Source: Thermoplasmata archaeon (GTDB lineage Archaea > Thermoplasmatota > Thermoplasmata > Lutacidiplasmatales > UBA184). Taken from it: a DNA stretch of 64,000 nt. Shown here piece after piece: positions 28,904-62,659 of this stretch. Every line of letters starts with the position of its first letter. Position 1 is the stretch's first letter. The notes under the pieces are model-generated. The model saw only the letters and a list, made by a program, of their open reading frames with translations. It had not been told where the DNA came from and did not search any database. The stretch covers positions 6,081-70,080 of the forward strand of contig JBARNH010000036.1 of NCBI GenBank assembly GCA_049802875.1, read 5' to 3'. The position numbers were made by a program, and so were the translations under genes.

Positions 28904-30072
28904 GCCGCATCGCCTCGGTCCGAGAAGGATGCGGCCACTACTCCCGCCCTCGCCCCGTCCCCGACCGCGGGGGCGGAGGGTGCCCCGGGTTGGCTGGGAA
29001 GACAGGTCGAGGTCCCGAAGAGCGCACTGACATCCGTTTGCTCGGTGAAAACGCAGTAGCTCCACGGTCCCCCGGGTGCCTGCGATGGCCCGGTGCCCGT
29101 CGTCGCGGTCCAGCTCGACGTCGTGCCGGCCGCTACGGTATGCGTCGAGACCTGAACCAGGGTCGTACTGGGGAACGCGCCGCCGACCTGAATCATGTTG
29201 ATGACGGCATTACCGATCATCTGTTCGGTGCCTTCGATGAGCGGTAGGGAGAAATCCATCACGGAGCCAGCGCCGAACGGGAGAAGGGCGGCGTTCGTGA
29301 GCCCGCCGGCGACGTTCCCGTAGACCTGGCCTCCCGCGGCCGCCACCCCCGCGGTCGAAAGTCCGAATCCGGTCAGCGCGTACGTCAGGCTCGCGATGTT
29401 GAGGGCCAGAGACCCGTCGGTCGAATTCACGAGGGGCCCGACGGGTCCGTACGAGAGATTTCCGAGGAACCGGTGCACGCCGTCGGTACCGATGACGCTG
29501 CCCGCGCTCGAGAGGGGAGTATTGGCGCTCGCCGAGTAGTAACCGATCGCCGCGCCGATCCACGCGAGCCGCCCTCCATCGAGAAGCCATGGGGCGACGA
29601 GGTCGGAGGAGTTCGAGTAAACGGTCGACGGAAACGCTCCCGAGGCCACGACCAGGAGGCCCCCGGGAGCGGTCAGGGGATTCGAGAGGATCCTCTCCAG
29701 CTGGTCGGCGTCCACCACCACCACCGAGATCGGAAGTCCCCGCGCGGCGATCGCGAGCTGCAGGTAGTACTGCATCCCGGCCCAACTGATGATGTTCGAG
29801 AAGCTGAGGCCGTACGCGGCGTCATAGAAGTAGTAGATCGTACGGATCTCGCTCGAGGAATTGAGCCAGAAGCCGACCTGTTGGAACGTCCCGGAGTACG
29901 AGGTCGTTACTTGGGAGTTCACCTCGATCGAGCTTCCGGTCTCCTCAAGGCTGACCGAGAACGACACCGAATTGCGCAGGGGAGGAGCGTAGACCGCCAC
30001 CTCCGAAACGAGGATCGCGACGACGACCAGGGTGATCGCGTAGGCCATGAGGTCGCCGGCACGTCGATTCAT
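28900..30072 (-). CDS. N-terminally membrane-anchored extracytoplasmic protein (module A partner, unknown function)
   Basis: The start is the Met at 30072, forming an ATGA overlap with the upstream membrane-protein stop. A signal-anchor TM is followed by about 360 aa with at least 10 N-x-S/T sequons. Shared motifs: IYAPP, YFYDA, VVVDADQL, LVAPWLLDGGRLAWIG, IGYYS. The paralog lies at 52325..53410. Confidence 0.6.
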   Translation of the reverse strand: MNRRAGDLMAYAITLVVVAILVSEVAVYAPPLRNSVSFSVSLEETGSSIEVNSQVTTSYSGTFQQVGFWLNSSSEIRTIYYFYDAAYGLSFSNIISWAGMQYYLQLAIAARGLPISVVVVDADQLERILSNPLTAPGGLLVVASGAFPSTVYSNSSDLVAPWLLDGGRLAWIGAAIGYYSASANTPLSSAGSVIGTDGVHRFLGNLSYGPVGPLVNSTDGSLALNIASLTYALTGFGLSTAGVAAAGGQVYGNVAGGLTNAALLPFGAGSVMDFSLPLIEGTEQMIGNAVINMIQVGGAFPSTTLVQVSTHTVAAGTTSSWTATTGTGPSQAPGGPWSYCVFTEQTDVSALFGTSTCLPSQPGAPSAPAVGDGARAGVVAASFSDRGDAA

Positions 30073-45386: not shown

Positions 45387-47462
45387 TCAGACTGCACCGG
45401 GCGGAGGCCCGCCGGCGCTCGGAGGGGGCGGTGACGAATCCCCCGGACCCTCCGACCAAGGGGAGCCGGGATTGCTGGCGGGCGGCGCGGGCGGTGTCAT
45501 CGCCGCGGGGGTCGGAACGGCCTCAACCCCTCCCTTTCGTCGCCGAGACACTAGGATGCCCACCATCAAGCCCACGATCCCCGCCACGATGATAAGGAGC
45601 AGTTCCTCGACCGTGCTCAGCGGCGACGAGCTCCCGGACGTGCTGGTGCCACCCTTCGTCGCGGGAGGGACCGCGAAGAATCCGATCCCTACGTTCTCGC
45701 CTCCCCCATGGACCGCTACCGAACCCTGCGTCGGGGTGTCGTTGTATCCACCCACGGCCGCGACGACGTAGGAGAACGTCCCGTTCGGCTCGGTGAACGT
45801 GATCGTGCCGTTGTTTGGACTGGAATGGGCGACGCCTCCAAGGGTCACCGACCACGCGGAGGTCCCGGGCAGTCCGCTCGAGGTGAACGTCACGGTGTAG
45901 GTGACTTCGGTCATCGTCAAGTTTACGGTGAGGTTTCCGTCATCGACTGACGCGACCCCCGACGCGGGGGTGACGGTGTATCCGGGGATGGCGGGGACGG
46001 TCCAAGAATAACTTCCGTTCTCGCGGTCCACCTCGACGCTCGTTCCGGTGCTCGCGTACGGCGTCGAGCCCACGAGGACCGACCAGGCGGTCGTGCCCGG
46101 GAGACCTTTCGCCTGGAACGAGATCCGATAGGTCGACGGGATGAACTCCAGGACGCGGTTGTTCCCGGTGTCGGCCACCCAGAGCGCGCCGTTCGGCCCC
46201 ACGAAGGCACCGAACGGTCCGGCGATCGCCGTGGCGTTGTCGCCAGATACATCGGCGGTCAGATTCGTCTGTCCGACGACCACCGACGCGTTCTCGAACG
46301 TGGAGAACGGCGGGAGGAATTCGACCACGCGGTTCCCCGCAAAGTCGGAGACCCACAGGTTCCCGCGCGGATCGACGGAGACGCTGACCGCAATGCCGAA
46401 CGCGCCCGCTCCCGTGGCGGTGTTGCCGGTGAACGAGGACTGGCCGAGAAGGTGGGTCGCCCCTTCCCCCGTCGAGAACGGAGCATCAAATCCGAGGACG
46501 CGATCGTTACCGGAGTCCGCGACCCACAGAATACCCCCGGAATAGTCGATGCCTTGGGGGTCGGAGAGGTTCGATGCGGAGAGCCCATATCGGCTCGTCG
46601 TAAAGTTGGATTGGCCTAGCACCAGGGAGGCGTTCATTCCGTTGGAGAACGGAGGGACGAATTCGACCACGCGGTCGTTTTCCGCGTCCACGACCCAGAG
46701 GTCACCGTGCGAGTCGAGGGTCAGGCCCACCGGGCGCGAGAGATTCTGTGCCGAAGTTCCCGACTGGTCACCGTTGAAGGTGCTCTGCCCCAACACTAGC
46801 AACGCCGCCTGGCCGTCAGTAAAGGGGGGTACAAACTCCAGGACGCGGCTGTTGTCGAAATCCGACACCCAAAGATCGCCGTGAGAGTCGAAGGTACAGG
46901 CGGCCGGAAGTCGCGTGCCCGTGGCGGTCGCATTGGGGCCTTTCGCCGTGAAGTTCGGCTGGCCAAGGACGATCGACGCCGCCTCCCCCGTGGAGAATGG
47001 CGGGGTGAACTCGGTGATCCGGTTGTCGCCCAGGCTCGGTACCCAGAGGTTGCCCCGAGAGTCGTTGCACGGGAATTCCACGTCGGGCCCGAAGGAGGTG
47101 GCATTGGCGCTCCCCGTCTGGTCGGTGGCGTTCCAGACCGTCCCATTCCATCGAGTCGTCAGATTGTTTGCACCCAGCGCGATGCTCGCGGCCATGTGGG
47201 TATAGAACGGGTTGGGAGGAGGTGAGGGGAGGGGAGCGATCGGGAGATGGAGTGCGGCAGGAGCCGCCACCGGCGGGTCTGCGGCGGCCAACGAGGGGCC
47301 GAGGGAACTGAGGAGCAGAGCGAGTACGCCGAACACGGTCCCGTACGTCATCAGCCGCGACATGGACGAATAACTTCGAACTTCTCCCTTATAATGCATC
47401 CGACGTGATTTCGGTGCCCTCGGCGCCGGTTCTCTGGGGTCGGGGGGATTTCCGGGACTCAT
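45387..47462 (-). CDS. secreted NHL-repeat beta-propeller protein with two C-terminal 'GLPxGTxWSV' domains, TM anchor and Pro-rich tail
   Basis: Signal peptide MTYGTVFGVLALLLSSLGPSLAAA. Six blades of the form LWV.D..N.RV.EF.PPFS.G..A..VLGQ.NFT. These are followed by two YTVTFTSSGLPGTSAWSV...NG.Y repeats, a TM helix and a Pro-rich C-terminus. Very many N-x-S/T sequons. Confidence 0.82.
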   Translation of the reverse strand: MSPGNPPDPREPAPRAPKSRRMHYKGEVRSYSSMSRLMTYGTVFGVLALLLSSLGPSLAAADPPVAAPAALHLPIAPLPSPPPNPFYTHMAASIALGANNLTTRWNGTVWNATDQTGSANATSFGPDVEFPCNDSRGNLWVPSLGDNRITEFTPPFSTGEAASIVLGQPNFTAKGPNATATGTRLPAACTFDSHGDLWVSDFDNSRVLEFVPPFTDGQAALLVLGQSTFNGDQSGTSAQNLSRPVGLTLDSHGDLWVVDAENDRVVEFVPPFSNGMNASLVLGQSNFTTSRYGLSASNLSDPQGIDYSGGILWVADSGNDRVLGFDAPFSTGEGATHLLGQSSFTGNTATGAGAFGIAVSVSVDPRGNLWVSDFAGNRVVEFLPPFSTFENASVVVGQTNLTADVSGDNATAIAGPFGAFVGPNGALWVADTGNNRVLEFIPSTYRISFQAKGLPGTTAWSVLVGSTPYASTGTSVEVDRENGSYSWTVPAIPGYTVTPASGVASVDDGNLTVNLTMTEVTYTVTFTSSGLPGTSAWSVTLGGVAHSSPNNGTITFTEPNGTFSYVVAAVGGYNDTPTQGSVAVHGGGENVGIGFFAVPPATKGGTSTSGSSSPLSTVEELLLIIVAGIVGLMVGILVSRRRKGGVEAVPTPAAMTPPAPPASNPGSPWSEGPGDSSPPPPSAGGPPPGAV

Positions 47463-48893: not shown

Positions 48894-49571
48894 CTATGCT
48901 TCGAGCGCCGGCGATCCCTCGGCCGGTGGGTTCGGGTCGGGGGTGACCGGACCCTGGGAGGCGACGGGCGCCCGAGGAGGTTTGGCCGAACGACTCGGCG
49001 AAGGCGCGGCCGGAGCGCTCTGGCGGCGCAACAGTCCGGCGGCCTGGAGTTCGGAAGTGATCTTCTGGACGGCCAGCGCGACGTCCGAGGGCCGGCGAGC
49101 TCCCGTGCAGACCAGTTTGCCGCTGCCAAATAGGAGCACGACCACCTTGGGCTCGTCGAGACGGCACACCAATCCCGGGAACTGCTCGGGTTCGTACTCC
49201 ACCCGGTCGAGGCCGAGCGTGATCGCGATCGAGTTGAGGTTGATCTCGCTCTCGAGATTGGAGGTCGCGACGATGTTCTGGATCTCGATCTTCGGGGGCT
49301 TCAGGTTCCGTTGACCGGTCTTACGAATGAGTTCCGATATCGTCCGAATCGATTCGTCCACCTGCTTCCAGCTCTTGCCGCCGGTACAGACGACCTTGCC
49401 CGAGTGAAAGAGCAGGATCGCCGTTTTGGGCTGCTTCAAGCGGTAGATCAGCCCCGGGAACTCCGCGGGCTCGTACTCTGCACCATCGAGCGCGAGAGCG
49501 ATCTTTTGCAGGTCAAGTTCGGCGCCGAGCGAGGTGGACGCGACTACGTTCTCAATCCGAATCCGAGTCAT
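48894..49571 (-). CDS. tbp: TATA-box binding protein
   Basis: Two TBP direct repeats (IENVVASTSLGAELDLQKIA... and IQNIVATSNLESEINLNSIA...), followed by a Pro/Ala-rich basic C-terminal tail. Confidence 0.9.
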   Translation of the reverse strand: MTRIRIENVVASTSLGAELDLQKIALALDGAEYEPAEFPGLIYRLKQPKTAILLFHSGKVVCTGGKSWKQVDESIRTISELIRKTGQRNLKPPKIEIQNIVATSNLESEINLNSIAITLGLDRVEYEPEQFPGLVCRLDEPKVVVLLFGSGKLVCTGARRPSDVALAVQKITSELQAAGLLRRQSAPAAPSPSRSAKPPRAPVASQGPVTPDPNPPAEGSPALEA

Positions 49572-50681: not shown

Positions 50682-51182
50682 CTAGTCGGACAGAAACTTA
50701 TCCAGCGCTTCCGCCGTGAAGCTCTGGATGCCCTCGAGGCGACGACCGTCCGGCCGAACGAGCACCGGAAATTGATGCAAGTGATGGAGGTGTTCCTCGA
50801 TCACACGCCGCAGGGCGGATTCCTTTCCCACATCGACCACGTGGAGGGTCTTGCCTTTCGCGCGGATCTGGTCCCACGCGCGGCGGATCGCATCCTCTTC
50901 GGCCTCGGGAAGCTCCTTTGCCCGCACCGGCTTGTTCGCGAAGTTCTCTTGGTCAATTGGATAACCCGACAGTCTCCCGGCCGCCGCGGGGTAGCTCGGC
51001 ATAGTACTGTAACCATTCGCTCGATACGCACGAACGAACTCCTCGTGGGAGTCCGGTGGAAGAACTTTTACGATGGTATCCTCCGACTTGATGTACATCA
51101 GCACGTCCCGCGCGTCCAATTCCTTCATCGAGAGCTCCGCCCACCCCACGCCGTGCGGTATGTAAACAATTCCGCGGAGCAA
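50682..51182 (-). CDS. hypothetical protein (166 aa)
   Basis: Its composition is protein-like (K/E/D/I/Y-rich, unlike the antisense ORF). The C-terminal half resembles a thioredoxin-fold module but has no Cys. No confident domain. Confidence 0.4.
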   Translation of the reverse strand: MLRGIVYIPHGVGWAELSMKELDARDVLMYIKSEDTIVKVLPPDSHEEFVRAYRANGYSTMPSYPAAAGRLSGYPIDQENFANKPVRAKELPEAEEDAIRRAWDQIRAKGKTLHVVDVGKESALRRVIEEHLHHLHQFPVLVRPDGRRLEGIQSFTAEALDKFLSD

Positions 51183-51256: not shown

Positions 51257-52141
51257 CTATTTCCACTCGGCCAGGGCGACGATGTCCTCTAGAAGAGCCA
51301 CCGGAGGTTCGGACCCGAACGACCCTGTGTCGAAGAAGCGGTAGAACCCCTGGCGAGGGGTCTCCGGTCGGAACGCGATGTGCCACGCGGCGGCGAGACC
51401 GAGAGGGGTCAGCGAGAGTTCCGGGGGAAACGGCTCGGACCAATCCAGTTTCACTGAACTTCCGAGATTGCCCAGACCGAGCGATCCCACCCGCTTACCC
51501 GTCATCTTCCAACGGGCGATGACCAACCCGTTCCAAGCTTCGGGGTGCAACGTCACCTGCGCGGTCGCCAAGGGGGTGAACGCCAGACCTTGGTCGCTCC
51601 ACTCGGGCGGGGGGGGCACCGACTTGCGTCCGGAGGACCGGGAGGTGGCGCCGATTTCGACCGCCACGGGTCGCTGGCTGTACCAGGAGGATTTCAATCC
51701 CTCACCGGGGCCGGCCACCCAGGTCACGCGACTGCTCGAGTCCGAGAATAGCGGCTGGACCCCCAAGTTCGCGTGGTGGGCCCCGTACATCCAGATCTGT
51801 TCGTGGGGTCGCCCCCGTCCGACGCTTTTGCTCCAGAACGGGATGTCTCCGATCCAGACGATCCGGCCCCCGGCGTCCAGGTATTCCCGAACGGGATTGT
51901 TGGCCGAAGCGTCCGGACAGAGTTCAAACGGGACGAGATCCTGGGAGAAGGCCAGTACGGAACGAGTCGCAGTGGAACCCTTCTTCCGGTCGAGGAGCCA
52001 CCCCGCGAGTCCCGAGGCGTCGACCCTTTCGTATTCGCGATCAGCGAGGTACCGGGTGATCCCCTTCCCCCAGGTCTCCTTGTCGATCCAGGATGAATCG
52101 TGCTCCTCGTCGAAGTATACGGCACGGTATGCCTCCGCCAT
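51257..52141 (-). CDS. hypothetical cytosolic protein sharing a domain with the extracytoplasmic module partners
   Basis: It has no signal peptide. VREYLDAGGRIVWIGDIPFWS and SVLAFSQDLVPFEL align to LVAPWLLDGGRLAWIG / LLAPWIRAGGTLVWFADTIGYYS in the 28900 and 52325 proteins. Confidence 0.5.
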   Translation of the reverse strand: MAEAYRAVYFDEEHDSSWIDKETWGKGITRYLADREYERVDASGLAGWLLDRKKGSTATRSVLAFSQDLVPFELCPDASANNPVREYLDAGGRIVWIGDIPFWSKSVGRGRPHEQIWMYGAHHANLGVQPLFSDSSSRVTWVAGPGEGLKSSWYSQRPVAVEIGATSRSSGRKSVPPPPEWSDQGLAFTPLATAQVTLHPEAWNGLVIARWKMTGKRVGSLGLGNLGSSVKLDWSEPFPPELSLTPLGLAAAWHIAFRPETPRQGFYRFFDTGSFGSEPPVALLEDIVALAEWK

Positions 52142-52324
52142 GGGTCGCCCACGGTGAGTTCTCTCCGGGCCTAATCAACGTTCTTCCTCCGCCTCGTTCC
52201 GGCGTCAGTTCTGGGACACATCGAGCGCCTTCCCCGTTCCCCGAGTTCGGGACTCCCCCTTGTCCTCGGAGAGGGAGGCAAGACACAGCTCAGGACGCCT
52301 CGGTCCGAGCTGCGCCCGGGGGGC

Positions 52325-53410
52325 TCAGGTCAGCGGAAGAGACACGGCGTTCCCATAAATCGCCAGCAGATCGCTCTGGTAGACCACGAAATACAGCTCG
52401 GTCGTGGAGTTCGCCCACGACAGATTGGGAATCACGATGGTCATCGAACCCCGGTAGGAACTCCCGCCCGGAACGAAGAAGCTCTGCAGTGCCACCGGCT
52501 GGAACGGACCCGTCAACGCCCCGGACTGGAGCATGGTCGCAAGGGAGACCGACAACTCGGTGTCGTCATACTCCATCGGGACCGAAAAGTAGTCGATCGT
52601 CCCGTTACCCAGCGGCAGCCGCGCGGCGTTGGTGTAGTTGCCGTACGTTTCGCCGAGCACCTCGCCGCCCTCGGCTTGGACGAGCCGCGTGTACATCCCG
52701 TGCGCAGGGATTCCAAATCCGTAGTTGAAATTATACGCCCGTGAGGACGGGGTCTCGTTGACGTACAACAGGGCCGATGAACCGAACAGCGAGGCGTTGA
52801 CAAACTGGGCGACGCCCGGCCACCCGGGATTCGAGGGATTCGGGTTCGACAACGGTGTGTTTGGCTGACCCGAGTAGTAGCCAATCGTGTCAGCGAACCA
52901 CACGAGGGTCCCGCCCGCGCGGATCCACGGAGCGAGAAGGTCGGTGGTCAGGTTGTACACCGTGTCCGGGATCACCCCCGTGGGCATGAACAGGATTGAA
53001 CGGGCGTCCGCTGGCTCAGTCAGGAAGCCGCGGAGCTGATTCGCGTCCAGGGTCACGATAGCCGGGGAGAGTCCCCTTGCGGTGAGCACCGCGTCGACAT
53101 GGTACGACAGACCGAACGACCACACGGGATAGGACCAGCTGGAGGGGTAGCTCGCATCGTAGTAGAAGTAGAGGTCGGCGGGCGGTGCTCCCCCGGCGGC
53201 GACCGTGGCCGTCGCGTTCACATTGGCGGGGAAGGTGGAGGTCACCCGATACGACGCCTCGTAGGTGCCGTTGGAGTTTTTGCTGAGGTCCACTGAGGCC
53301 GAGATACGTGCCTCCGCGGGCGGAGCGTAGATCAACACCTCGGCCACCACGATCGCGGCGATGAAGACGACGAGCACCACACGAAAGAACTGAACCAACG
53401 GTCGAGTCAT
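52325..53410 (-). CDS. N-terminally membrane-anchored extracytoplasmic protein (module B partner; paralog of 28900..30072)
   Basis: The Met at 53410 forms an ATGA overlap with the upstream gene's stop. TM anchor. Motifs IYAPP, YFYYDASY, VTLDANQL, LLAPWIRAGGTLVWF, IGYYS, NTPLS. At least 12 sequons. Confidence 0.6.
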   Translation of the reverse strand: MTRPLVQFFRVVLVVFIAAIVVAEVLIYAPPAEARISASVDLSKNSNGTYEASYRVTSTFPANVNATATVAAGGAPPADLYFYYDASYPSSWSYPVWSFGLSYHVDAVLTARGLSPAIVTLDANQLRGFLTEPADARSILFMPTGVIPDTVYNLTTDLLAPWIRAGGTLVWFADTIGYYSGQPNTPLSNPNPSNPGWPGVAQFVNASLFGSSALLYVNETPSSRAYNFNYGFGIPAHGMYTRLVQAEGGEVLGETYGNYTNAARLPLGNGTIDYFSVPMEYDDTELSVSLATMLQSGALTGPFQPVALQSFFVPGGSSYRGSMTIVIPNLSWANSTTELYFVVYQSDLLAIYGNAVSLPLT

Positions 53411-54870
53411 ACCGGAACTCCCCTCAGCCGAAGGCCCGAGAGCCGGACCCCGACCCACGCACTGACGACGAGGATGACCGCAACTGGAATCACAAAGAAG
53501 GGTCGCAGGAGGGGGGACCAAACGGCCCAAGTGAAAAGGCTATTCCGCACCACGCCGAGTCCCAACAGATGGGTGTTGAACGCCAAGGGCTCAAAGAAGA
53601 AGAGGGGGCTGGTCACACCGAACAGGTAGTACAGCGTCGCCCCGGCGGTCAAGGTGACGTAGGAAAGTCCGGACCAAAGCGTGTACCGGACATAGACCGC
53701 CAGGGCGAGCACGACCCATGGCAGAACCCAGAGCAGGTACTGTGATTGGACGAACGGCACGAGTAGATACGCCGCACAGAGCGAGAGAAGGAGTGTGCCG
53801 TCCCAGTACGCCAGAAAACCGGGACCCGAGATGCGGGGAGCCCGAGCCGTCCGGATCGCGATGAAGATAAGCGCCAGGGCTGCCACCACGACCATCGCCA
53901 CTACGACGAGCGTCGCATTCGCGCCGAGCGTGACGGCCACTCCGTTCAGACTACCGATCGAGAGCACCGACCACTGATTGAAGCCGCCGAAGGGCTCGTT
54001 TCCACGACTGGTGCCGACGAAGAAGAACGTCAACCAGTTCGTGAGGCTGCCCGGCGGCCAGAACACGAGTGCCATCATTCCCCCGAGACCGAGGGCGAAC
54101 AGTCCCAGCGGTTTGGCGAGGGTTCCGCCGGACGACCGAGAAGTGTCCCAGGTCAGCAGGAGGAAGACCGGTACAAGGACCAGTGTGAACACCCCAATGA
54201 CCGCGCCGAGGCCCAAGGAAATGCCGGAGAAGAGGAAATCCCGCTTGGTCGCGAGGTAGTACGCGAGGAGGGCGAGGAACGCGGTGATCCCGTCGAACGT
54301 CCCGTGGATCGCGGAGACGGTGATGACCAGCGGATTGAGCATCCAGAGCGCGATCCCGGCCGTGGCCGCCCGCGGGTCCGGAATCCGCTCGCGAATCATC
54401 ACGTAGAGCAGGACACCCAGGAGGACATCAAAAACGAAATAGATCGACTTCAGCACGAGGTCGAAGGCGACGGTCGGATAGAACGTTGGTTCGTACGAGG
54501 CAAAGGGGAGAACGACAAGGCTGTTCAAACCGGGCGGGACGGTTAGAATGTTCGCCGGAGCCGAGAACAGGGAGAATGCTCTCCCCAAGAGCCCAAGAAG
54601 GTAGAGCCATCCGGGCGGATAGTTGGTGAGATACGCGTACGGCCCCTGGCCGTACGCCATGCTGAGCGCGGAGGCCGCGAACCCGGCAGTATCCCCCTCG
54701 GCGGAATAAACCGCGACGGCGTATCGGATGAAAAGTCCAATCACAATAATCCAAACCGCCGTTTGGTGATCCCGAACCACGGACGCCGCGCGGGCGATTC
54801 CAGCGCCAACCCTCGCCCTTATGGCCGACCCGAGCGCAATTCTCGGGGGGCTCGGAACTCCGGAGCTCAT
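53407..54870 (-). CDS. polytopic GT-C-like membrane protein (module B; paralog of 30069..31622)
   Basis: About 12 TM helices. Shares YGQGPY..YPP, NPLVI..S..HG and GAVIGVF motifs with the module-A membrane protein. Confidence 0.62.
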   Translation of the reverse strand: MSSGVPSPPRIALGSAIRARVGAGIARAASVVRDHQTAVWIIVIGLFIRYAVAVYSAEGDTAGFAASALSMAYGQGPYAYLTNYPPGWLYLLGLLGRAFSLFSAPANILTVPPGLNSLVVLPFASYEPTFYPTVAFDLVLKSIYFVFDVLLGVLLYVMIRERIPDPRAATAGIALWMLNPLVITVSAIHGTFDGITAFLALLAYYLATKRDFLFSGISLGLGAVIGVFTLVLVPVFLLLTWDTSRSSGGTLAKPLGLFALGLGGMMALVFWPPGSLTNWLTFFFVGTSRGNEPFGGFNQWSVLSIGSLNGVAVTLGANATLVVVAMVVVAALALIFIAIRTARAPRISGPGFLAYWDGTLLLSLCAAYLLVPFVQSQYLLWVLPWVVLALAVYVRYTLWSGLSYVTLTAGATLYYLFGVTSPLFFFEPLAFNTHLLGLGVVRNSLFTWAVWSPLLRPFFVIPVAVILVVSAWVGVRLSGLRLRGVPV

Positions 54871-55328: not shown

Positions 55329-56666
55329 GTGCAGATCGATTTTGAAACACGAAGAGAACTTCGATCTGTGACGGTGGTGCTGACCGCGGCTATTCTGTTG
55401 ACCCTCGTCCTTTCGATGGTGCCGACCACTGCCGCCAGTCCCTCGGTGGTTGCCAGCGAATTGCCCATGTCCTCGGCGCTGGCAGTGGGGCCGGTGTCAG
55501 CGGCGCCTACGACGGGACTCCAGACCGAAATTGATCTCGCCCCTCCCGGGGCGACGGTCGTCATTCCCGCCGGAACGTACGTCGGCCAACTCCGTATCGA
55601 CAAGGATGTTGAACTCGTGGGCGCTGGGGAGGGGAAGACCATTCTGCAGTCTCCGGCCACCATGAACCCGGACTTCCTCGGAAATGTCTTCGTGGTGGAG
55701 GTCGGGGAGCACTCCACCGTCCAAATCTCGGAACTCACCGTGAGGGTGACCGAAGAGTGCATGCTCGCGAACGGTATCGGCGTCGCCACAGGGGGCGGGA
55801 TCGGTGTTCACGGGGATGCCACGATCAAGATATGGGACGTGGGTGTCGTGGCCTTCGGCCCCGCTCCGGACCTCGACCAGACGTGCATGACGGATGGAAC
55901 CGCCGGGATGCTTTCGTTCGGACGCGCCGTCAGCATCGGACTCGACGATCCTGCGGGCATCGGGACTCCGTTCGAGGTCGAGGGTCATGGCTGGGTCGAG
56001 CATGTCACGGTCCAGGGCTTCGACATCTTCTCCATCTCGGTGGGTGGGGTGCGCGGACCCAGTGGGAGCACCGCCACGATCATCGACAACGTGGTGCGAG
56101 TAGGGCCCGGTCCCTATACCGCGGCCTACGGGATCGTCGCCTATGGGGTATCGGTCATCTCGGACAATCTCGTGGTCGGCCAGGCAGGGTCCGATGGGGG
56201 AATCGCCGTCGTCTTCACGTCGGCGATTGTGACGAACAACGTCATCAAGAACTTCATCTGCACCAGCGCACCCTTCCCGATCACCCCCCCGTGTGGGGTC
56301 GACCCATTCTTTGACGACCAGGACCTGGGGATCTTCCTCGCGAGCATCACTCCGGGGACCGCGGTGACGCACAACACGATCCGCGACGTCGACGCGGGGA
56401 TCCTCGTCGACGGGCCGGGAGCTCCCGCGCTCATCCAGCACAACACCATCACGAACAGTACGTACTACGGGCTCGACCTGATCAACGCGAACCAGACCTT
56501 CCGCGACAACGACGTAGGGGGCGGGCTGTACGCGATCGCGGTCGGCGCCGAGAACGACAACACCACGGCCATTCTCGCGCACGACTCCCTGCACGGTTAT
56601 TCGGAGGCGCTGGCCCTCCTGGAAGCGAACTCCCCGTGGGTCGCCAAAGCCCTCGTAAGACCCTAG
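55329..56666 (+). CDS. secreted right-handed parallel beta-helix (PbH1/NosD-like) protein
   Basis: Signal peptide. N-terminal IDLAPPGATVVIPAGTYVGQLRIDKDVELVGAGEGKTIL is typical of NosD-like beta-helix proteins. Repeated Gly/Val/Ile-rich about 22-aa turns with NN.I..N.. motifs. Confidence 0.65.
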   Translation: MQIDFETRRELRSVTVVLTAAILLTLVLSMVPTTAASPSVVASELPMSSALAVGPVSAAPTTGLQTEIDLAPPGATVVIPAGTYVGQLRIDKDVELVGAGEGKTILQSPATMNPDFLGNVFVVEVGEHSTVQISELTVRVTEECMLANGIGVATGGGIGVHGDATIKIWDVGVVAFGPAPDLDQTCMTDGTAGMLSFGRAVSIGLDDPAGIGTPFEVEGHGWVEHVTVQGFDIFSISVGGVRGPSGSTATIIDNVVRVGPGPYTAAYGIVAYGVSVISDNLVVGQAGSDGGIAVVFTSAIVTNNVIKNFICTSAPFPITPPCGVDPFFDDQDLGIFLASITPGTAVTHNTIRDVDAGILVDGPGAPALIQHNTITNSTYYGLDLINANQTFRDNDVGGGLYAIAVGAENDNTTAILAHDSLHGYSEALALLEANSPWVAKALVRP

Positions 56667-57266: not shown

Positions 57267-59864
57267 TTGGCAACTCCGACCAATCCATCCGCGGCCTCGT
57301 ACCCTGCGCCGATGAATCCGCCTCCACCGTCCGTTCCTCCGCCGACGCCTCCCCCGCCCCGAAAGGGAATGTCCAGCGGCTTGAAAGTGGCCATCATCGC
57401 GGTCGTGGTGGTCATCATCGTGGTCATCGGGCTGGGCTTCTCGGGGCTGATCCCTGGGTTCAAGCTGGGCGGGTCGAGCTCGACCAGCCCGAGCGCCGCG
57501 CAGTACGTGGTCACCTTCTCCGAGACCGGACTGCCGTCGGGCACCTCTTGGTCCATCACGTTCGCGGGCTCTACGGAGTCTGCGGCGACGTCCACGATCA
57601 CGTTCTCGGAGAAGAACGGTACGTATTCTTTCACGGTCGGAGCCGTGACCGGGTTCGCGGCCACCCCAACCTCCGGTAGCCTCACCGTCAATGGGGCGGC
57701 GTTGAACCAAGGAATCACGTTCGCCAGCGGCTACAGCGTCACCTTCACCGAGTCGGGGCTGCCGTCCGGAACCATGTGGTCGGTCACCCTCAGCGGCTCG
57801 ACTCTCTCATCGACCTCGGAGTCCATCGCCTTCACCGAAGCGAACGGCATGTATTCCTACACGATCCCGTCTGCCACGGGGTACACGGCCAGTCCCGCGT
57901 CGGGAACCGTGACGGTGAGCAGCGCACCCCAGTCCGTGACCGTCACGTTTACGTCCATTCCTCCGGGCGAGTACGTGGTCACCTTCACGGAGAGCGGACT
58001 CCCGACCAGCACCAGCTGGTCGGTCACCCTGCAAGGGAGCTTGCAATCCTCGACGACCAGCGCCATCACGTTCGACGAGATGAATGGGTCCTATCCCTAC
58101 ACGGTGGGCACGGTGAGCGGGTACACCGCGACCCCATCGAGCGGTAACGTGCCCGTCTCCGGAGGGCCAGCGTTCGTCACGATCACATTCACCACCTCCA
58201 CTTCTGGGCTGGGCGGGCCCCAGTACGCGGTGACCTTCGATCAGACCGGGTTGCCGGCGGACGAGCTGTGGAGCGCCGGTGCCGCTCCGGTGTCGAACTT
58301 CCTGCTGGAGTACGGAGCGGCGAGCGTAGGGCCGAGTATCGAGTTCTCGGCACCGGACGGCGCCTACTACTGGTCCACGGGTACGAATGCGTACGGCCCG
58401 AACGGAAACCCCTACGTTACGGAACCCTCGGGCGGAGAGTTTAACGTGACCGGGTCCCCCGTGACAATCCCGTTCGCATTCCTTCCCACGTACTCGGTCA
58501 ACTTCACTGAGACCGGCCTCCCCATGGACGCCAGTTGGAACGTGACGCTGAACGGGACGACCACTTGCTATGCTACTGGTCCCGAAAACTGCACATCGGA
58601 CGCCACGTGGACGAACGGTACCCTCCCGTTCGTGGTCGCCGCGTTCGGCTACACCCCATCCCCGGAGTCGGGGTCGGTCACCGTCTCCGGTGCCAATGTC
58701 TCCACGCCAATCTCGTTCACCTCCCTCACATTGTACTCGGTGGAGTTTACCGAGTCCGGTCTGGCTTCCGGAACGGACTGGTCCGTCTATCTCAATGGAA
58801 CGCTTGGGTTCGGCACCGCGCCGGGGAACATCGTGCTCACCGGTTTCCCGAATGGCATCTACCCGTTCGATGACGTGACCACGAACGGCTACTATTCGGC
58901 GAGTCCGAGTTCCGGCAGCGTCACTGTCGCTTCGGCGCCCGGCAGCCAGGCCATTGTGTTCACGGCGCTTTCCACCTACACCGTGACGTTCAGCGAAAGC
59001 GGCCTTGCATCAAGCACCGGTTGGGAGGTCTACCTCAACTTGAGCTACGGATCCGCTTCCGCCCCGACGACGATACCGCTGTCGGCTCCGGTCGGTAACA
59101 ACACGTGGACCGCATACGCCTCGGGGTACTACGACCAGTACGGGTACGTGATCGTAACGACCGGGGCGAACCCGGTGACCGTCACGTTCACGGCCCTGCC
59201 TACCCCCCCGCTCACGTACATCGTGACGTTCAACGAAACCGGCCTTCCGTCGTCATACGACTACTGGTCGGTGTACATGGTCAACAATGGGCTCGATACC
59301 ACGTGCAGCGATTCCAATGCGGCGGGCGCTAACATCAGTTGCTTTGTGCCCGACGGATACTATTCCTGGGTGGCCACCGCCGACTTTTCACCGAACTACA
59401 CTGCAAGTCCCACGTCCGGCTATGTGACCGTGACCGGGGCCACGATCATCGTGAACGTCACGTACGTGAACACGACCGCCCTGGACGAGTACCTGGCGGC
59501 ATTCGTCGAGTGGTCGTACTGGTACTTTGGTGAGGGTGGGATCCCCAACGGATCGAGCTGGAGCGTTACGCTCGGGGGAGTCACCCAGAGTTCGCAAGGG
59601 ATGTTCATTTACTTCCTTGAACCGAACGGTACCACACAAGCCTACACCATCACACCGCCCGCAGGGTATGTGGTAGTGCCGAGCTCCGGGAACATTACTG
59701 GCTACACGCAGACTTACCAGGGCTCCTACGAGATCTGGTACTACCCGACCGTAGTCGTGGTGTTCGCCGCGGACCCCCCGTTGGAGCTTTCGGGGAACTC
59801 TATTGCGACTTCCCTATCCAACGCCCCCCATGTCTTCGCGATAGCGGCGACACGCGACTCCTGA
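57267..59864 (+). CDS. type-II-anchored surface protein: Pro-rich cytoplasmic N-tail, TM, about 12 tandem ~70-aa 'GLPxGTxWSV' repeats
   Basis: The N-terminus is Pro-rich (MATPTNPSAASYPAPMNPPPPSVPPPTPPPP) followed by a TM helix (VAIIAVVVVIIVVIGLGF). The repeats read Y.VTFTE.GLP.GT.WSVTL.G...S....I.F.E.NG.Y.Y.V....GY.A.P.SG.V.V. There are about 20 N-x-S/T sequons. The track's first codon is non-ATG. The ATG at codon 16 is an alternative start. Confidence 0.8.
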   Translation: MATPTNPSAASYPAPMNPPPPSVPPPTPPPPRKGMSSGLKVAIIAVVVVIIVVIGLGFSGLIPGFKLGGSSSTSPSAAQYVVTFSETGLPSGTSWSITFAGSTESAATSTITFSEKNGTYSFTVGAVTGFAATPTSGSLTVNGAALNQGITFASGYSVTFTESGLPSGTMWSVTLSGSTLSSTSESIAFTEANGMYSYTIPSATGYTASPASGTVTVSSAPQSVTVTFTSIPPGEYVVTFTESGLPTSTSWSVTLQGSLQSSTTSAITFDEMNGSYPYTVGTVSGYTATPSSGNVPVSGGPAFVTITFTTSTSGLGGPQYAVTFDQTGLPADELWSAGAAPVSNFLLEYGAASVGPSIEFSAPDGAYYWSTGTNAYGPNGNPYVTEPSGGEFNVTGSPVTIPFAFLPTYSVNFTETGLPMDASWNVTLNGTTTCYATGPENCTSDATWTNGTLPFVVAAFGYTPSPESGSVTVSGANVSTPISFTSLTLYSVEFTESGLASGTDWSVYLNGTLGFGTAPGNIVLTGFPNGIYPFDDVTTNGYYSASPSSGSVTVASAPGSQAIVFTALSTYTVTFSESGLASSTGWEVYLNLSYGSASAPTTIPLSAPVGNNTWTAYASGYYDQYGYVIVTTGANPVTVTFTALPTPPLTYIVTFNETGLPSSYDYWSVYMVNNGLDTTCSDSNAAGANISCFVPDGYYSWVATADFSPNYTASPTSGYVTVTGATIIVNVTYVNTTALDEYLAAFVEWSYWYFGEGGIPNGSSWSVTLGGVTQSSQGMFIYFLEPNGTTQAYTITPPAGYVVVPSSGNITGYTQTYQGSYEIWYYPTVVVVFAADPPLELSGNSIATSLSNAPHVFAIAATRDS

Positions 59865-60046: not shown

Positions 60047-62659
60047 TTGGCAGCTCCGAGCAATCCATCCGCGGCCTCGTACCCTCCGCCGATGAATCAG
60101 CCTCCCCCACCGGCCCCACCGCCGTCCCCTCCCCCGAAGCGAAAGGGACTGTCGAAGGGAGTGCTCGTGGCGATTGCCGCCGTCGTCGTGGTCGTCATCG
60201 TGGTTCTCGGACTGGGTTTCTCTGGGCTGATCCCCGGGTTCAAGTTGGGCGGGTCGAGCTCAGGCGGCGCGAGCGGCCCATCGTACGTGATCACGTTCAC
60301 CGAAACCGGACTACCGTCGGGGACGACCTGGTCGATCACCCTCGCCGGTAGCGTGGCCTCGTCGGCCACGCCCACCATCACGTTCTCGGAGAAGAACGGT
60401 AGCTATTCATACTCCGTCGGGTCCGTACCAGGGTTCGCCGCGAACCCAACGTCGGGGACGGTGGGCGTCAACGGGCTGGCAGTGAACGAGGCCATCACGT
60501 TCCAGGCCGGATACGCCGTCACCTTCACCGAATTCACGCTACCCTCAGGCACAATGTGGTCGGCCACCCTGAACGGGTCGACTCTCTCCTCGACGTCGGG
60601 CTCCATTGCGTTCACCATCCCGAACGGGGTGTATGCCTACTCGATCCCGACGGTGTCCGGGTATACGGCAAGTCCCGCGTCGGGATCGGTCACAGTGAGC
60701 GGCGTCGCCCAATCGGTGCCGATCACCTTCACTCCGGTTCCCGCGGGAGAGTATGCGGTCACGTTCACCGAGAGCGGTCTTCCCGGCGGCACGAGCTGGT
60801 CGGTCACCCTCGGGGGAACCCTCCAGTCCTCGACGACCACCACCATCACTTTCAACGAGAACAACAACACCTATCCTTACACCGTAGGCGCGGTCAGCGG
60901 CTACACCGCGGCCCCATCGAGCGGGAACGTCGTCGTCTCCGGCGGGCCGGCGTCCGTTACGATCACGTTCACCACCTCCTCCAACCCGTTGGCCGGGCCG
61001 CAGTACGCGGTGACATTCGACCAGTCCGGGTTGGCTGCGGACGAGCTCTGGAGCACCTACGCCTCGGTCAAGACAGATTTGTTCTTGTACTACGGGGCGA
61101 CGAGCGCAGGAGCCAGCATGGAGTACTCGGCCCCGGACGGCACGTACTACTGGTCCGTCTCCACGGACGCAATGGGCGCGAACGGCAACCCGTACCAGCC
61201 GGACCCGGCCGGAGGGACGTTTACGGTGTCCGGCGGCCCGGTGACAATCCCGGTCGCCTTCCTGCCGACGTACTCGGTCAACTTCACCGAGACCGGTCTG
61301 ACTCCGGGAGCCCCCTGGAATGTGACATTGAATGGGACAACCATTTGCTATGGCACGGCTCCCACGAATTGCACAACGGATACCACGTGGACGAACGGTA
61401 CCCTTTCGTTCGTGGTCGCCGCCCTTGGCTACACCGCCTCCCCGGCGACGGGGATGATCACCGTATCGGGCGGTAACGTCTCTCAGGCGATCTCGTTCAC
61501 TTCCGTGTCCACGTACATGGTGACGTTCACCGAGACGGGCCTGGCTTCCGGAGTGTATTGGTACGTCACCTTGGACGGTGTGCCTGGTTATGGCAACGCG
61601 CCATCGACCATCGTGTTCCCCGACTTCCCGATCGGAGACTTCCCGTTCTATGACGTGTCCTCGGCCGGCTACTATTCGGCGAGCCCGACATCCGGCAGCG
61701 TGACCGTCACCTCGGGCGGCGGAAGCCAGGCGATCGTATTCACGGCGATCACTCTCTACCCAGTGACCTTCACCGAGCACGGGCTGACGTCGGGCAGCCC
61801 GTGGACCGTCGAGCTCAACGAGAGCGAAGGAAATGCGGCCGCGCCGACGCCGATTTCTGTGTCGGCCCCCGCCGGAAACAACAGTTACGTCGCCTACTCC
61901 ACGGGGTACATCACTCAATCTGGGTACGAGATCGTAACGACAGGGACGAACGCGGTGTCCGTCACTTTCTCCCTTCCGCCGCCCCCACCTACCCTGTATA
62001 ACGTGACGTTCAACGAAACCGGCCTTCCGATGACCGGTGGTTGGGGGATCGAGCTGCAGAATAATGGGGCGTATATCTCGCTGTACACTACATGCTCGAA
62101 TTCCTCGGGGGCCGGCACCAATCTCAGTTGCTACGTGCCGGACGGCAATTATTCATGGTCGGCTTCCACGCTGTACACACCCAATTACACCGCATCCCCG
62201 ACGGCGGGCTATCTGACCGTTGACGGCGCGGGCACGATCGTCATCGTTTCGTTCGTCAACACAACGGCATCGGGCCAGTACTTAGTGGCGTTCGCCGAGG
62301 ATGCCTACTCGGAATTCGGTATCGGCGGGACACCCAACGGATCGACGTGGAGCGTGACGCTCGGGGGAGTGACCCATACTTCGCAGGGGATGTACATCGC
62401 CTTCCTCGCGACGAACGGCTCCACCGAAGCGTATACGATCACCCCGCCCGCGGGATACGTGGTGGTACCGAGTTCGGGAAGCATCACCGGCTACACCTCA
62501 TGGTACCAGGGCGACCTATCCGTGGAAGCGTACGCCTTTGTGAGCGTGGTGTTCGCGGCTACGGACCCCCCGCTCGAGGTCCCGGCGAGCGAAATTGCGA
62601 GCAGCCTCTCGGGCGCTCCCCACGGGTTTGCAATGGCCCCGCCCCGGGACGAGTCCTAG
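60047..62659 (+). CDS. paralogous type-II-anchored repeat surface protein (tandem duplicate of 57267..59864)
   Basis: Same architecture and collinear sequence (about 70% identity by eye). The N-terminus MAAPSNPSAASYPPPMNQPPPP matches the first copy, and the upstream 50 bp is also conserved. Confidence 0.8.
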   Translation: MAAPSNPSAASYPPPMNQPPPPAPPPSPPPKRKGLSKGVLVAIAAVVVVVIVVLGLGFSGLIPGFKLGGSSSGGASGPSYVITFTETGLPSGTTWSITLAGSVASSATPTITFSEKNGSYSYSVGSVPGFAANPTSGTVGVNGLAVNEAITFQAGYAVTFTEFTLPSGTMWSATLNGSTLSSTSGSIAFTIPNGVYAYSIPTVSGYTASPASGSVTVSGVAQSVPITFTPVPAGEYAVTFTESGLPGGTSWSVTLGGTLQSSTTTTITFNENNNTYPYTVGAVSGYTAAPSSGNVVVSGGPASVTITFTTSSNPLAGPQYAVTFDQSGLAADELWSTYASVKTDLFLYYGATSAGASMEYSAPDGTYYWSVSTDAMGANGNPYQPDPAGGTFTVSGGPVTIPVAFLPTYSVNFTETGLTPGAPWNVTLNGTTICYGTAPTNCTTDTTWTNGTLSFVVAALGYTASPATGMITVSGGNVSQAISFTSVSTYMVTFTETGLASGVYWYVTLDGVPGYGNAPSTIVFPDFPIGDFPFYDVSSAGYYSASPTSGSVTVTSGGGSQAIVFTAITLYPVTFTEHGLTSGSPWTVELNESEGNAAAPTPISVSAPAGNNSYVAYSTGYITQSGYEIVTTGTNAVSVTFSLPPPPPTLYNVTFNETGLPMTGGWGIELQNNGAYISLYTTCSNSSGAGTNLSCYVPDGNYSWSASTLYTPNYTASPTAGYLTVDGAGTIVIVSFVNTTASGQYLVAFAEDAYSEFGIGGTPNGSTWSVTLGGVTHTSQGMYIAFLATNGSTEAYTITPPAGYVVVPSSGSITGYTSWYQGDLSVEAYAFVSVVFAATDPPLEVPASEIASSLSGAPHGFAMAPPRDES

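What the first reader, a model, noticed from the sequence alone, without database searches (positions are those of the whole stretch)
52325..54870. Copy B of the membrane/partner module, plus a third cytosolic homolog of the partner domain immediately downstream (51257..52141)
Copy B mirrors copy A, including the ATGA junction at 53407-53410. Directly downstream on the same strand, a 294-aa protein without a signal peptide carries the same core motif. Its VREYLDAGGRIVWIGDIPFWS and SVLAFSQDLVPFEL segments match the partners' LLAPWIRAGGTLVWFADTIGYYS.

The same domain therefore occurs in both extracytoplasmic and cytosolic versions within 3 kb. One possibility is a sugar-handling domain acting on both faces of the membrane, for example precursor preparation and then extracellular trimming or transfer.
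Basis: seen in the sequence. Interest (0 to 1): 0.6.

Follow-up and report, generated by a model that had tools for sequence, protein, structure and literature searches.

The report
Glycosyltransferase partner shares half-domain with neighbour
An archaeal membrane glycosyltransferase is encoded together with an outward-facing helper protein, and the cytosolic protein next door really does share about 100 residues of an ancient alpha/beta module with that helper, but the two do not appear to work in one pathway.

Summary
In this Thermoplasmata window, copy B is a GT-C glycosyltransferase gene (53407..54870, Pfam GT87) whose stop overlaps, in ATGA, the start of a 361-aa membrane-anchored partner (52325..53410). 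It is a true paralogue of copy A (29-31% identity, E 1e-42 and 1e-45).

The 294-aa protein downstream (51257..52141) has no hydrophobic segment. Its first ~110 residues are homologous to residues 75-186 of the partner (profile-profile E 2e-13, probability 98%; reversed control E 0.74). The C-terminal parts show no detectable similarity.

The shared piece is the first four strands of an alpha/beta domain. By fold it resembles the non-catalytic "trimerisation" domain of GH42/GH164 glycosidases, a glutamine-amidotransferase-like or GIFT-like fold.

The GT-C and partner pair with overlapping stop and start is conserved in all six other contexts examined, usually among GT2/GT4 genes. The 294-aa protein belongs to Pfam PF27344 (MJECL34, function unknown). 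Outside one syntenic relative, its homologues never sit beside the module. They lie in mobile or defence regions (OLD-like nuclease, short pAgo, SIR2, Shedu, TIR fusion).

The homology is real, but the "both faces of one sugar pathway" reading is not supported. Moderately interesting.

The parts
53407..54870 (-). GT-C fold membrane glycosyltransferase, copy B (487 aa)
   Evidence: Pfam GT87 at 31.9 bits, above the cutoff of 25. Many hydrophobic segments. 29% identical to copy A, E 1e-42. Across 7 family members, D60 after the first helix is invariant, as are K141, D148, the W176-x-L178-N179-P180 motif, H189, G190 and D193.
53407..53410 (-). ATGA stop/start overlap between the GT-C gene and the partner gene
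   Evidence: Read directly. The same junction occurs in copy A at 30069..30072. Overlapping stop/start of this gene pair recurs in L003, L005, L006, L008/L009, L010 and L013/L014.
52325..53410 (-). Partner B (361 aa): N-terminal membrane helix plus an extracytoplasmic ectodomain
   Evidence: 31% identical to partner A, E 1e-45. AlphaFold2 model with mean pLDDT 86. No Pfam or NCBIfam family. Only about 14 clusters in 5.8 billion proteins.
53327..53404 (-). Membrane helix of partner B (residues 3-28), with a conserved Glu at position 24
   Evidence: Hydropathy. Modelled as a helix. Glu present in 12 of 13 aligned N-termini.
52853..53188 (-). Shared module in partner B (residues 75-186): strand1-helix-strand2-helix-strand3-helix-strand4
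   Evidence: hhalign against the MJECL34 family: E 2e-13, 104 columns. Controls. Secondary structure.
52334..52504 (-). C-terminal beta-sandwich of partner B (residues 303-359)
   Evidence: AlphaFold2 model. Foldseek matches to enzymes that share an alpha/beta domain B followed by a beta-sandwich domain C.
52142..52324 (-). 183-nt spacer between partner B and the 294-aa gene. Its only AT-rich octamer is TTGATTAG at 52171..52178, 30-37 nt upstream of the ATG.
   Evidence: Read directly. Treating the octamer as a TATA-like element is an inference, not a test.
51257..52141 (-). Cytosolic 294-aa protein of Pfam family PF27344 (MJECL34)
   Evidence: The identical protein P0001 and all homologues carry a precomputed PF27344 hit. 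No hydrophobic segment. AlphaFold2 model with mean pLDDT 73.
51809..52141 (-). Shared module in the 294-aa protein (residues 1-111)
   Evidence: hhalign. BLASTP against partner B, E 2e-4. tblastn against the A-type partner of L013, E 7e-5.
30069..31622 (-). GT-C membrane glycosyltransferase, copy A (start codon uncertain)
   Evidence: Pfam PIG-U at 30.2 bits and GT87 at 28.7 bits. Paralogous to copy B.
28900..30072 (-). Partner A (390 aa)
   Evidence: Paralogous to partner B. ATGA junction. Matches the MJECL34 profile weakly, at 13.6 bits, in the same register.

Best explanation
Copy B is a two-gene module for a step of surface-glycan assembly on the outer face of the membrane.

The first gene encodes a GT-C fold glycosyltransferase of the GT87 / PIG-U / PIG-M type. 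Enzymes of this kind take a sugar, typically mannose, from a polyprenyl-phosphate carrier. That is family knowledge, not tested here.

The second gene is translationally coupled to the first through an ATGA overlap. It encodes a partner held in the membrane by one N-terminal helix. Its ectodomain is an alpha/beta domain of the GH42-domain-B (glutamine-amidotransferase-like, GIFT-like) type followed by a beta-sandwich.

The partner family keeps no catalytic-looking residues, and its fold relatives are the non-catalytic domains of glycosidases. I therefore infer that it is a stoichiometric, non-catalytic subunit that stabilises the transferase, holds the acceptor or lipid-linked glycan, or does both. 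This would be comparable to Wbp1/OST48 beside STT3.

Copies A and B are old paralogues, each with orthologues in related genomes.

The 294-aa protein downstream is a cytosolic member of the MJECL34 family (PF27344). Its first ~110 residues are homologous to the first four strands of the partner's alpha/beta domain. It is probably transcribed on its own and works independently. Elsewhere its relatives sit in mobile-element and defence regions.

Shown here: the homology, the conserved gene coupling, the fold class and the neighbourhood pattern. Inferred: complex formation, the non-catalytic role, the donor sugar, and the independence of the third gene.
For: - GT-C identity: Pfam GT87 and PIG-U above their cutoffs, and an invariant Asp after helix 1.
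- Coupling: ATGA overlaps. The GT-C then partner order with overlapping stop/start holds in 6 of 6 other contexts, five of them non-syntenic and usually next to GT2, GT4 or sulfatase-like genes.
- Paralogy: A-type and B-type modules are both present, adjacent and divergent, in L013.
- Partner topology: an N-terminal helix and 9 sequons.
- Partner fold: Foldseek against the PDB hits GH164 Bs164, GH5 Op5Man5, GH42, GH112 and the IaSGT beta-1,2-glucosyltransferase, with E from 2e-4 to 4e-2. In Bs164, domain B is described as an alpha/beta trimerisation domain like that of GH42, followed by a beta-sandwich domain C (PMC7105311); Op5Man5 is described as having a GH42-type homotrimeric structure (abstract of PMC8233224); for GH112 and IaSGT the common architecture rests on my own knowledge.
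- No invariant catalytic-type residues in the partner family.
- Homology of the third protein.
- Third-gene contexts elsewhere: an OLD/AriA/GajA-like nuclease 6 nt upstream on the M. jannaschii plasmid; E1-E2-like, TIR-APAZ and short pAgo genes; SIR2-TPR, a PbeA-like helicase, terminase and portal; SduA_C; Prim-Pol; a TIR fusion.
- No GT-C or partner gene in the DNA fetched for any of the 14 non-syntenic MJECL34 loci, seven or eight of which have useful flanks.
- The Wbp1/OST48 GIFT domain beside STT3 is described in PMC7226087.
Against: - Nothing here shows a physical complex or any activity.
- The fold matches are partial (TM-score 0.31-0.37 on the query, rmsd 5-10 A). For the 294-aa model they are weak (best E 0.013, mean pLDDT 73, three low-confidence segments).
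- Two acidic positions are shared by both families: D11/D85 after strand 1 and D99/D174 after strand 4. They could form a functional site, so a catalytic or binding role for the partner is not excluded.
- The gene order partner then 294-aa gene is kept in the one close relative and could matter in this lineage.
- The defence association rests on about eight neighbourhoods, and PADLOC has no model that matches the family.
Confidence: 0.6

Rival explanations
1. One reading: one sugar-handling domain acts on both faces of the membrane in a single pathway. The cytosolic copy prepares a precursor and the extracytoplasmic copies trim or transfer it.
For: The genes are on the same strand and adjacent, and the order is kept in the 84%-identical relative L003. 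The homology is real. Extracellular relatives of the module co-occur with carbohydrate-binding domains such as PA14, BetaGal_ABD2, NPCBM_assoc and dockerin.
Against: The adjacency is already lost in homologues that are 64% identical. It is absent from every other module context. Copy A has no such neighbour. There is a 183-nt spacer. The conserved polar residues differ between the two families. The C-terminal parts are unrelated in sequence. Relatives sit in defence or mobile regions.
Confidence: 0.1
2. The partner is itself an enzyme, for example a glycan-modifying hydrolase, transglycosylase or amidase, that works after the GT-C step. It would not be a passive subunit.
For: The fold belongs to a superfamily that includes true enzymes, and GATase-type hits appear for the related 294-aa model. 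An Asp sits at the nucleophile-elbow position after strand 4 in most partners, and D85 is nearly invariant.
Against: There is no invariant Cys, His, Glu, Lys or Arg in the family. The Asp after strand 4 is Ala in partner A and Gly in P0025. The best fold matches are to non-catalytic domains.
Confidence: 0.12
3. The 294-aa protein is a component of an archaeal anti-virus or mobile-element system that happens to lie next to the module in this lineage.
For: Neighbourhoods elsewhere include an OLD/AriA/GajA-like nuclease 6 nt upstream, short pAgo with TIR-APAZ and E1-E2-like genes, SIR2-TPR, a helicase and a nucleotidyltransferase next to terminase and portal, the Shedu SduA_C domain, Prim-Pol and a TIR-MJECL34 fusion. 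This reading is compatible with the best explanation and sharpens its last part.
Against: No PADLOC or PHROG model matches the family. There is no phage-record match and no viral fold match. In this window no defence gene was recognised among the neighbours checked (Pfam; PADLOC was run only on the 166-aa ORF). The same module also occurs in giant surface proteins.
Confidence: 0.3
4. The similarity between the 294-aa protein and the partners is chance or compositional.
For: Pairwise scores are marginal: E 2e-4 against partner B and 0.078 against partner A.
Against: Profile-profile E 2e-13 against 0.74 for the reversed control. The alignment register is constant in all cross-family HMM hits, and reversed sequences score below 0 bits. 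The signal grew when more diverse sequences were added. The order of secondary-structure elements matches.
Confidence: 0.02

Closest known systems
Wbp1/OST48 beside STT3 in eukaryotic oligosaccharyltransferase
   Same: A single-pass membrane protein with a GIFT (amidotransferase-like alpha/beta) domain on the non-cytosolic side accompanies a GT-C catalytic subunit. Its proposed role is to bind the lipid-linked glycan or act as a docking platform (PMC7226087). Three weak single-sequence Pfam hits of MJECL34-family members fall in this group: OST48_N 0.042, DUF4350 0.062 and IFT52_GIFT 0.18.
   Different: Here the anchor is N-terminal, not C-terminal. The GT-C is GT87/PIG-U-like, not STT3/AglB. 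No significant sequence match to GIFT models was obtained, and none at all for the partner family. Association is inferred only from gene coupling.
Domains B and C of GH42 beta-galactosidases and of GH164 Bs164, with GH5 Op5Man5 as a third GH42-type trimer
   Same: These are the best structural matches of the partner model: an alpha/beta domain with a mixed sheet followed by a beta-sandwich. The 294-aa model also hits one GH164 Bs164 chain (6t5o_FFF), very weakly (E 2.8, rank 45); its best match is a different enzyme, the IaSGT glucosyltransferase (7vky, E 0.013).
   Different: No TIM-barrel catalytic domain is present. Sequence identity is 8-14%. In those enzymes the domain mediates trimerisation of a soluble hydrolase, not partnership with a membrane transferase.
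Pfam PF27344 (MJECL34), a family of unknown function named after an ORF of the M. jannaschii large extrachromosomal element
   Same: The 294-aa protein is a full-length member. It matches the M. jannaschii plasmid ORF at 33% identity over 116 residues.
   Different: The partners share only the first ~105 residues and lack the family's later invariant positions W153 and R157.
GT87 mannosyltransferases such as mycobacterial PimE, and the GPI mannosyltransferase pairs PIG-M/PIG-X and Gpi18/Pga1 (from my own knowledge)
   Same: GT-C enzymes that use polyprenyl-phosphate-mannose on the non-cytosolic face. In the GPI pairs the enzyme needs a small single-pass partner.
   Different: The partners in those systems have unrelated folds. 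The donor and acceptor here are unknown.

Membership tests
GT-C glycosyltransferase, GT87 / PIG-U-like (membrane protein 53407..54870) | Match to the family model above the curated threshold | tested here: met
   GT87 at 31.9 bits against a cutoff of 25. Copy A: PIG-U 30.2 against 24.5 and GT87 28.7 against 25.
GT-C glycosyltransferase, GT87 / PIG-U-like | Polytopic membrane protein with a conserved acidic residue in the first loop after helix 1 | tested here: met
   About 10 hydrophobic segments. D60 is invariant in 7 of 7 family members. That this loop faces outward is inferred.
GT-C glycosyltransferase, GT87 / PIG-U-like | Use of a polyprenyl-phosphate-linked sugar donor | not testable with these tools
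   This needs a biochemical assay.
Pfam PF27344 MJECL34 (294-aa protein) | Match to the Pfam model | tested here: met
   Precomputed PF27344 hit on the identical protein P0001 and on all 11 homologues. The local Pfam copy lacks this model.
Pfam PF27344 MJECL34 (partners A and B) | Full-length match, including the later conserved positions W153, R157 and the C-terminal GF-R-D motif | tested here: not met
   Only profile positions 5-109 align. The C-terminal parts give E 0.61. Just one partner homologue carries a precomputed hit.
Class I glutamine-amidotransferase-like / GH42 domain B fold | Alpha/beta domain with a mixed sheet that matches solved members by structure | tested here: met
   Partner B: Foldseek probability 0.97-1.0 and E from 2e-4 to 3e-3 for GH164 and the GH5 Op5Man5; GH42 itself matches more weakly (E 4e-2, probability 0.51). 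The 294-aa model is weaker: E 0.013 to IaSGT, plus PabA, GMP synthase and STM1381.
True class I glutamine amidotransferases | Cys-His-Glu catalytic triad with Cys at the nucleophile elbow after strand 4 | tested here: not met
   Neither family has an invariant Cys or His. The elbow position holds Asp (D99 or D174), Ala or Gly.
GIFT domain (GldG, IFT52, OST48/Wbp1) | Significant sequence match to GIFT-type models | tested here: inconclusive
   Three sub-threshold hits among 56 MJECL34-family members: OST48_N 0.042, DUF4350 0.062 and IFT52_GIFT 0.18. None among the 14 partners. No PDB sequence match.
Accessory subunit of a GT-C enzyme (Wbp1/OST48-like role) | Physical association with the catalytic subunit | not testable with these tools
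   Only conserved translational coupling was shown.
Known anti-phage defence proteins (PADLOC) | Match of the 294-aa protein to a defence model | tested here: not met
   No PADLOC or PHROG hit for the MJECL34 part. Only the neighbours match defence models.

The most novel reading that the evidence does not exclude
The shared ~105-residue module may be a ligand-binding (glycan or sugar-nucleotide) half of a GIFT-like domain that archaea use in two settings. Outside the membrane it would be an obligatory, translationally coupled subunit of GT-C glycosyltransferases, a prokaryotic counterpart of Wbp1/OST48 beside STT3. In the cytosol it would form stand-alone or TIR-fused MJECL34 proteins of defence islands, where it would act as the sensor.
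Probability: 0.2. Interest if true: 0.65.

Novelty: new variant of a known kind. Interest (0 to 1): 0.4.

Why it matters
GT-C glycosyltransferases with dedicated accessory subunits are well known in eukaryotes (OST, the GPI mannosyltransferases) but hardly described in archaea. Here a small, unannotated protein family is strictly coupled to a GT87/PIG-U-like enzyme in wall-less Thermoplasmata, whose surface depends on glycans. That gives a concrete candidate for such a subunit and a testable complex. Separately, the link to PF27344 gives that orphan family a fold class. Its recurrent placement beside OLD-like nucleases, short pAgo, SIR2, Shedu and TIR genes flags it as a candidate defence-associated module.

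Tried and rejected
- Local Pfam and NCBIfam scans of the partners and of the 294-aa protein found nothing.
- PDB sequence-profile searches with A1, A2 and A3 gave only noise.
- The viral structure library (BFVD) gave no match for the 294-aa model. Phage records gave no match either.
- PADLOC and PHROGs gave nothing for the MJECL34 part.
- Literature searches for PF27344 and MJECL34 found no papers.
- hhalign of the C-terminal parts of the two families showed no similarity (E 0.61). I therefore do not claim that the whole domains are homologous by sequence.
- I looked for a gene that travels with the 294-aa gene. The 166-aa ORF downstream is kept only in the syntenic relative.
- The metagenome locus search failed with the diverse alignment A3. 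It was repeated with A1.
- I considered a cleaved signal peptide for the partner, because partner B has A-E-A before R35. Partner A lacks the motif, so I treat the helix as an anchor, without a test.
Full report
**Source and gene layout**

The window comes from a high-GC Thermoplasmata archaeon. Identical proteins are on record as hypothetical proteins WA691_04055 and WA691_04060 of a Thermoplasmata metagenome-assembled genome. A TATA-binding protein gene lies at 48894..49571.

Three consecutive ORFs lie on the minus strand:
- a 487-aa polytopic membrane protein (53407..54870);
- a 361-aa protein (52325..53410), when counted from the ATG that overlaps the upstream stop;
- a 294-aa protein (51257..52141), after a 183-nt spacer.

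The ATGA junction is present at 53410..53407. An identical junction joins the copy A genes at 30072..30069.

**Copy B against copy A**

The two membrane proteins are 29% identical (E 1e-42). The two partners are 31% identical over their whole length (E 1e-45).

Both membrane proteins pass the Pfam threshold for GT87, and copy A also passes PIG-U. Seven family members share an invariant Asp just after the first helix (D60), the position expected for the catalytic acid of GT-C enzymes. They also share K141, D148, a W-x-L-N-P motif and H189-G190-x-x-D193.

In another metagenomic contig (L013) an A-type and a B-type module lie back to back. Each is closer to its counterpart here than to the other module in L013: 47-52% and 55-59% against about 30%. 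The duplication is therefore old, and both copies are maintained.

**The module is conserved as a pair**

I examined six other genomic contexts of partner homologues, at 24-90% identity. In every one the partner gene follows a GT87/PIG-U-type gene, with its start overlapping that gene's stop. The pair usually lies beside GT2, GT4, sulfatase-like and methyltransferase genes.

In this window, copy A lies in a glycosylation cluster with three GT2 genes, an FkbM methyltransferase and sugar-nucleotide enzymes. Copy B lies among large surface proteins.

The partner family is very small. About 14 clusters were found in 5.8 billion proteins, and it has no Pfam or NCBIfam model.

**What the partner looks like**

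The AlphaFold2 model (mean pLDDT 86) contains:
- an N-terminal helix (residues 3-28);
- a few strands;
- an alpha/beta domain (about residues 79-300);
- a C-terminal beta-sandwich (residues 303-359).

The helix is the only hydrophobic segment. The protein carries nine N-X-S/T sequons, which fits an outward-facing ectodomain.

Foldseek against the PDB returns GH164 Bs164, GH5 Op5Man5, GH42 beta-galactosidase, GH112 phosphorylase and the IaSGT glucosyltransferase, with E from 2e-4 to 4e-2. What these enzymes have in common is a non-catalytic alpha/beta "trimerisation" domain B followed by a beta-sandwich domain C. This is described for Bs164 and GH42 in PMC7105311. The abstract of PMC8233224 says only that Op5Man5 has a GH42-type homotrimeric structure. 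For GH112 and IaSGT it is my own knowledge.

The matches are partial, with TM-score about 0.3 on the query. The partner family has no invariant Cys, His, Glu, Lys or Arg; its invariant positions are mostly Gly, Pro, Trp, Phe and Thr. I therefore read the partner as a non-catalytic subunit. That is an inference.

A Glu near the outer end of the membrane helix is kept in 12 of 13 sequences. It could contact the invariant R49 or K141 of the transferase. This was not tested.

**The third protein is homologous, over half a domain**

Pairwise BLASTP is marginal: E 2e-4 against partner B over 102 columns, and 0.078 against partner A. The profile-level evidence is much stronger:
- A profile of 12 relatives of the 294-aa protein against 14 partner-family sequences gives hhalign probability 97% and E 8.8e-11.
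- With 56 diverse relatives this rises to 98% and E 2e-13 over 104 columns. Residues 1-111 of the 294-aa protein align with residues 75-186 of partner B.
- Reversing the partner alignment gives E 0.74.
- HMMs of either family hit the other's members in one constant register (11-43 bits), while reversed sequences score below zero. Partner B reaches 32 bits, which is E 0.007 even for a library of 1.8 billion proteins.
- The 294-aa protein also hits the A-type partner of L013 directly (E 7e-5).

- SVLAFSQDLVPFEL aligns with SILFMPTGVIPDTV.
- VREYLDAGGRIVWIGDIP aligns with LAPWIRAGGTLVWFADTI.
- An N-terminal Y-x-D...SSW motif also aligns.

The order of secondary-structure elements is the same in both models: strand, helix, strand, helix, strand, helix, strand.

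Beyond residue ~111 no sequence similarity is detectable (E 0.61). Both models do continue with a hairpin and a final helix.

The 294-aa model is less confident (mean pLDDT 73). Its best fold matches are the same IaSGT enzyme (E 0.013), followed by glutamine-amidotransferase domains and STM1381.

**What the 294-aa protein belongs to**

It is a full-length member of Pfam PF27344, named MJECL34. It matches an ORF of the M. jannaschii large extrachromosomal element. No paper in the library mentions the family.

An exhaustive profile search finds 721 cluster representatives at E of 1e-3 or better. The N-terminal ~160 residues recur in many architectures:
- giant surface proteins with PA14, dockerin, CarboxypepD_reg, BetaGal_ABD2 and NPCBM_assoc domains;
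- a pilin-like protein with two copies;
- proteins with polytopic N-terminal regions;
- a TIR fusion.

Across 56 diverse members the invariant positions are D11, G91, W96, D99, P101, W153 and R157; D68 is nearly invariant. D11, D68 and D99 follow strands 1, 3 and 4, the usual site-forming edge of such folds. That last point is an inference. The partners keep the first and, mostly, the third of these, but have Gly in place of D68.

**Is the third gene functionally tied to the module?**

The evidence says no.
- I scanned 15 loci that carry an MJECL34-family gene with HMMs of the GT-C and partner families. Only the syntenic 84%-identical relative (L003) has them. Seven or eight of the 14 non-syntenic loci have several kilobases of flank on at least one side; the others are short contigs.
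- No other module context has an MJECL34 gene.

Instead the relatives lie in these settings:
- 6 nt downstream of an OLD/AriA/GajA-like ATPase-nuclease, among PIN, EVE and VapBC genes, on the M. jannaschii plasmid;
- near E1-E2-like, TIR-APAZ and short pAgo genes, for a 64%-identical homologue;
- between SIR2-TPR, NUDIX, a PbeA-like helicase and a nucleotidyltransferase, next to terminase and portal genes;
- near a Shedu SduA_C gene;
- near a 970-aa Prim-Pol protein, and near a transposase.

This is guilt by association. PADLOC and PHROGs have no model for the family.

In the window the spacer is 183 nt. Its only AT-rich octamer lies 30-37 nt upstream of the ATG, which would suit a separate archaeal promoter. 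That reading is by eye only.

**Comparison with known systems**

In function, the closest analogue of the module is a GT-C enzyme with a single-pass accessory subunit that carries an amidotransferase-like (GIFT) domain on the non-cytosolic side. The known example is Wbp1/OST48 beside STT3, for which a role in lipid-linked oligosaccharide recruitment has been proposed (PMC7226087).

A hint of actual relatedness exists. Among 27 sub-threshold Pfam families hit by MJECL34-family members, three are OST48_N, DUF4350 and IFT52_GIFT. By my own knowledge these belong to one superfamily. The hits are far from significant, and none appears for the partners.

I therefore file the resemblance as "works like", not as membership.

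**Verdict**

The GT-C and partner pair is an undescribed variant of a known theme. The MJECL34 link and its neighbourhood pattern are new leads of moderate interest.

Noticed in passing
L013 1736..7098 (also L014): An A-type and a B-type GT-C plus partner module lie back to back on opposite strands in a related metagenomic contig. The two paralogous modules, 22 kb apart in this window, may therefore once have formed one divergent locus.
   Followed up: partly
L011 4091..6867 (M. jannaschii plasmid pDSM2661_1, NC_001732.1 42228..45004): The founding MJECL34-type ORF starts 6 nt after a 630-aa OLD/AriA/GajA-like ATPase-nuclease gene (PADLOC AriA E 1.9e-34). This looks like a two-gene unit, with PIN, EVE and VapBC genes nearby.
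   Followed up: partly
L007 3645..9973: A 64%-identical homologue of the 294-aa protein lies about 1-4 kb from an E1-E2-like ThiF protein, a TIR-APAZ protein and a short prokaryotic Argonaute (pAgo_I E 2.9e-140). This is a SPARTA-like defence locus in an archaeal contig.
   Followed up: partly
P0036, P0054, P0059, P0076, P0062, P0075 (proteins): The MJECL34 module occurs fused to TIR. It occurs twice in a pilin-like protein with an N-terminal methylation motif. It occurs inside proteins of more than 3000 aa with PA14 domains, and behind polytopic membrane regions.
   Followed up: partly
window 21835..23934 (+): A 699-aa polytopic membrane protein with no Pfam hit lies inside the glycosylation cluster, next to a GT2 gene. 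It may be a further large membrane glycosyltransferase or polymerase.
   Followed up: partly
window 57267..59864 and 60047..62659 (+); also 45387..47462 (-): Two tandem paralogous surface proteins of about 870 aa are built from repeated modules of the type TFTESGLPSGT-WSV. The same module is repeated at the C-terminus of an NHL-repeat protein. No meaningful Pfam family matched.
   Followed up: no
window 40321..45315 (+) and 18146..21154 (+): Very large Ser/Thr/Gly-rich repeat proteins of 1664 and 1002 aa, each with a C-terminal membrane helix and a Pro-rich tail. They are probably surface proteins of a wall-less archaeon and possible glycosylation targets.
   Followed up: no
window 50682..51182 (-): A 166-aa ORF lies 74 nt downstream of the 294-aa gene. 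It is conserved (75% identity) only in the syntenic relative and has no Pfam or PADLOC match.
   Followed up: partly
window 55329..56666 (+): A 445-aa right-handed beta-helix protein (Pfam Beta_helix, NosD-like) is transcribed divergently from copy B. It is kept in the syntenic relative L003.
   Followed up: no
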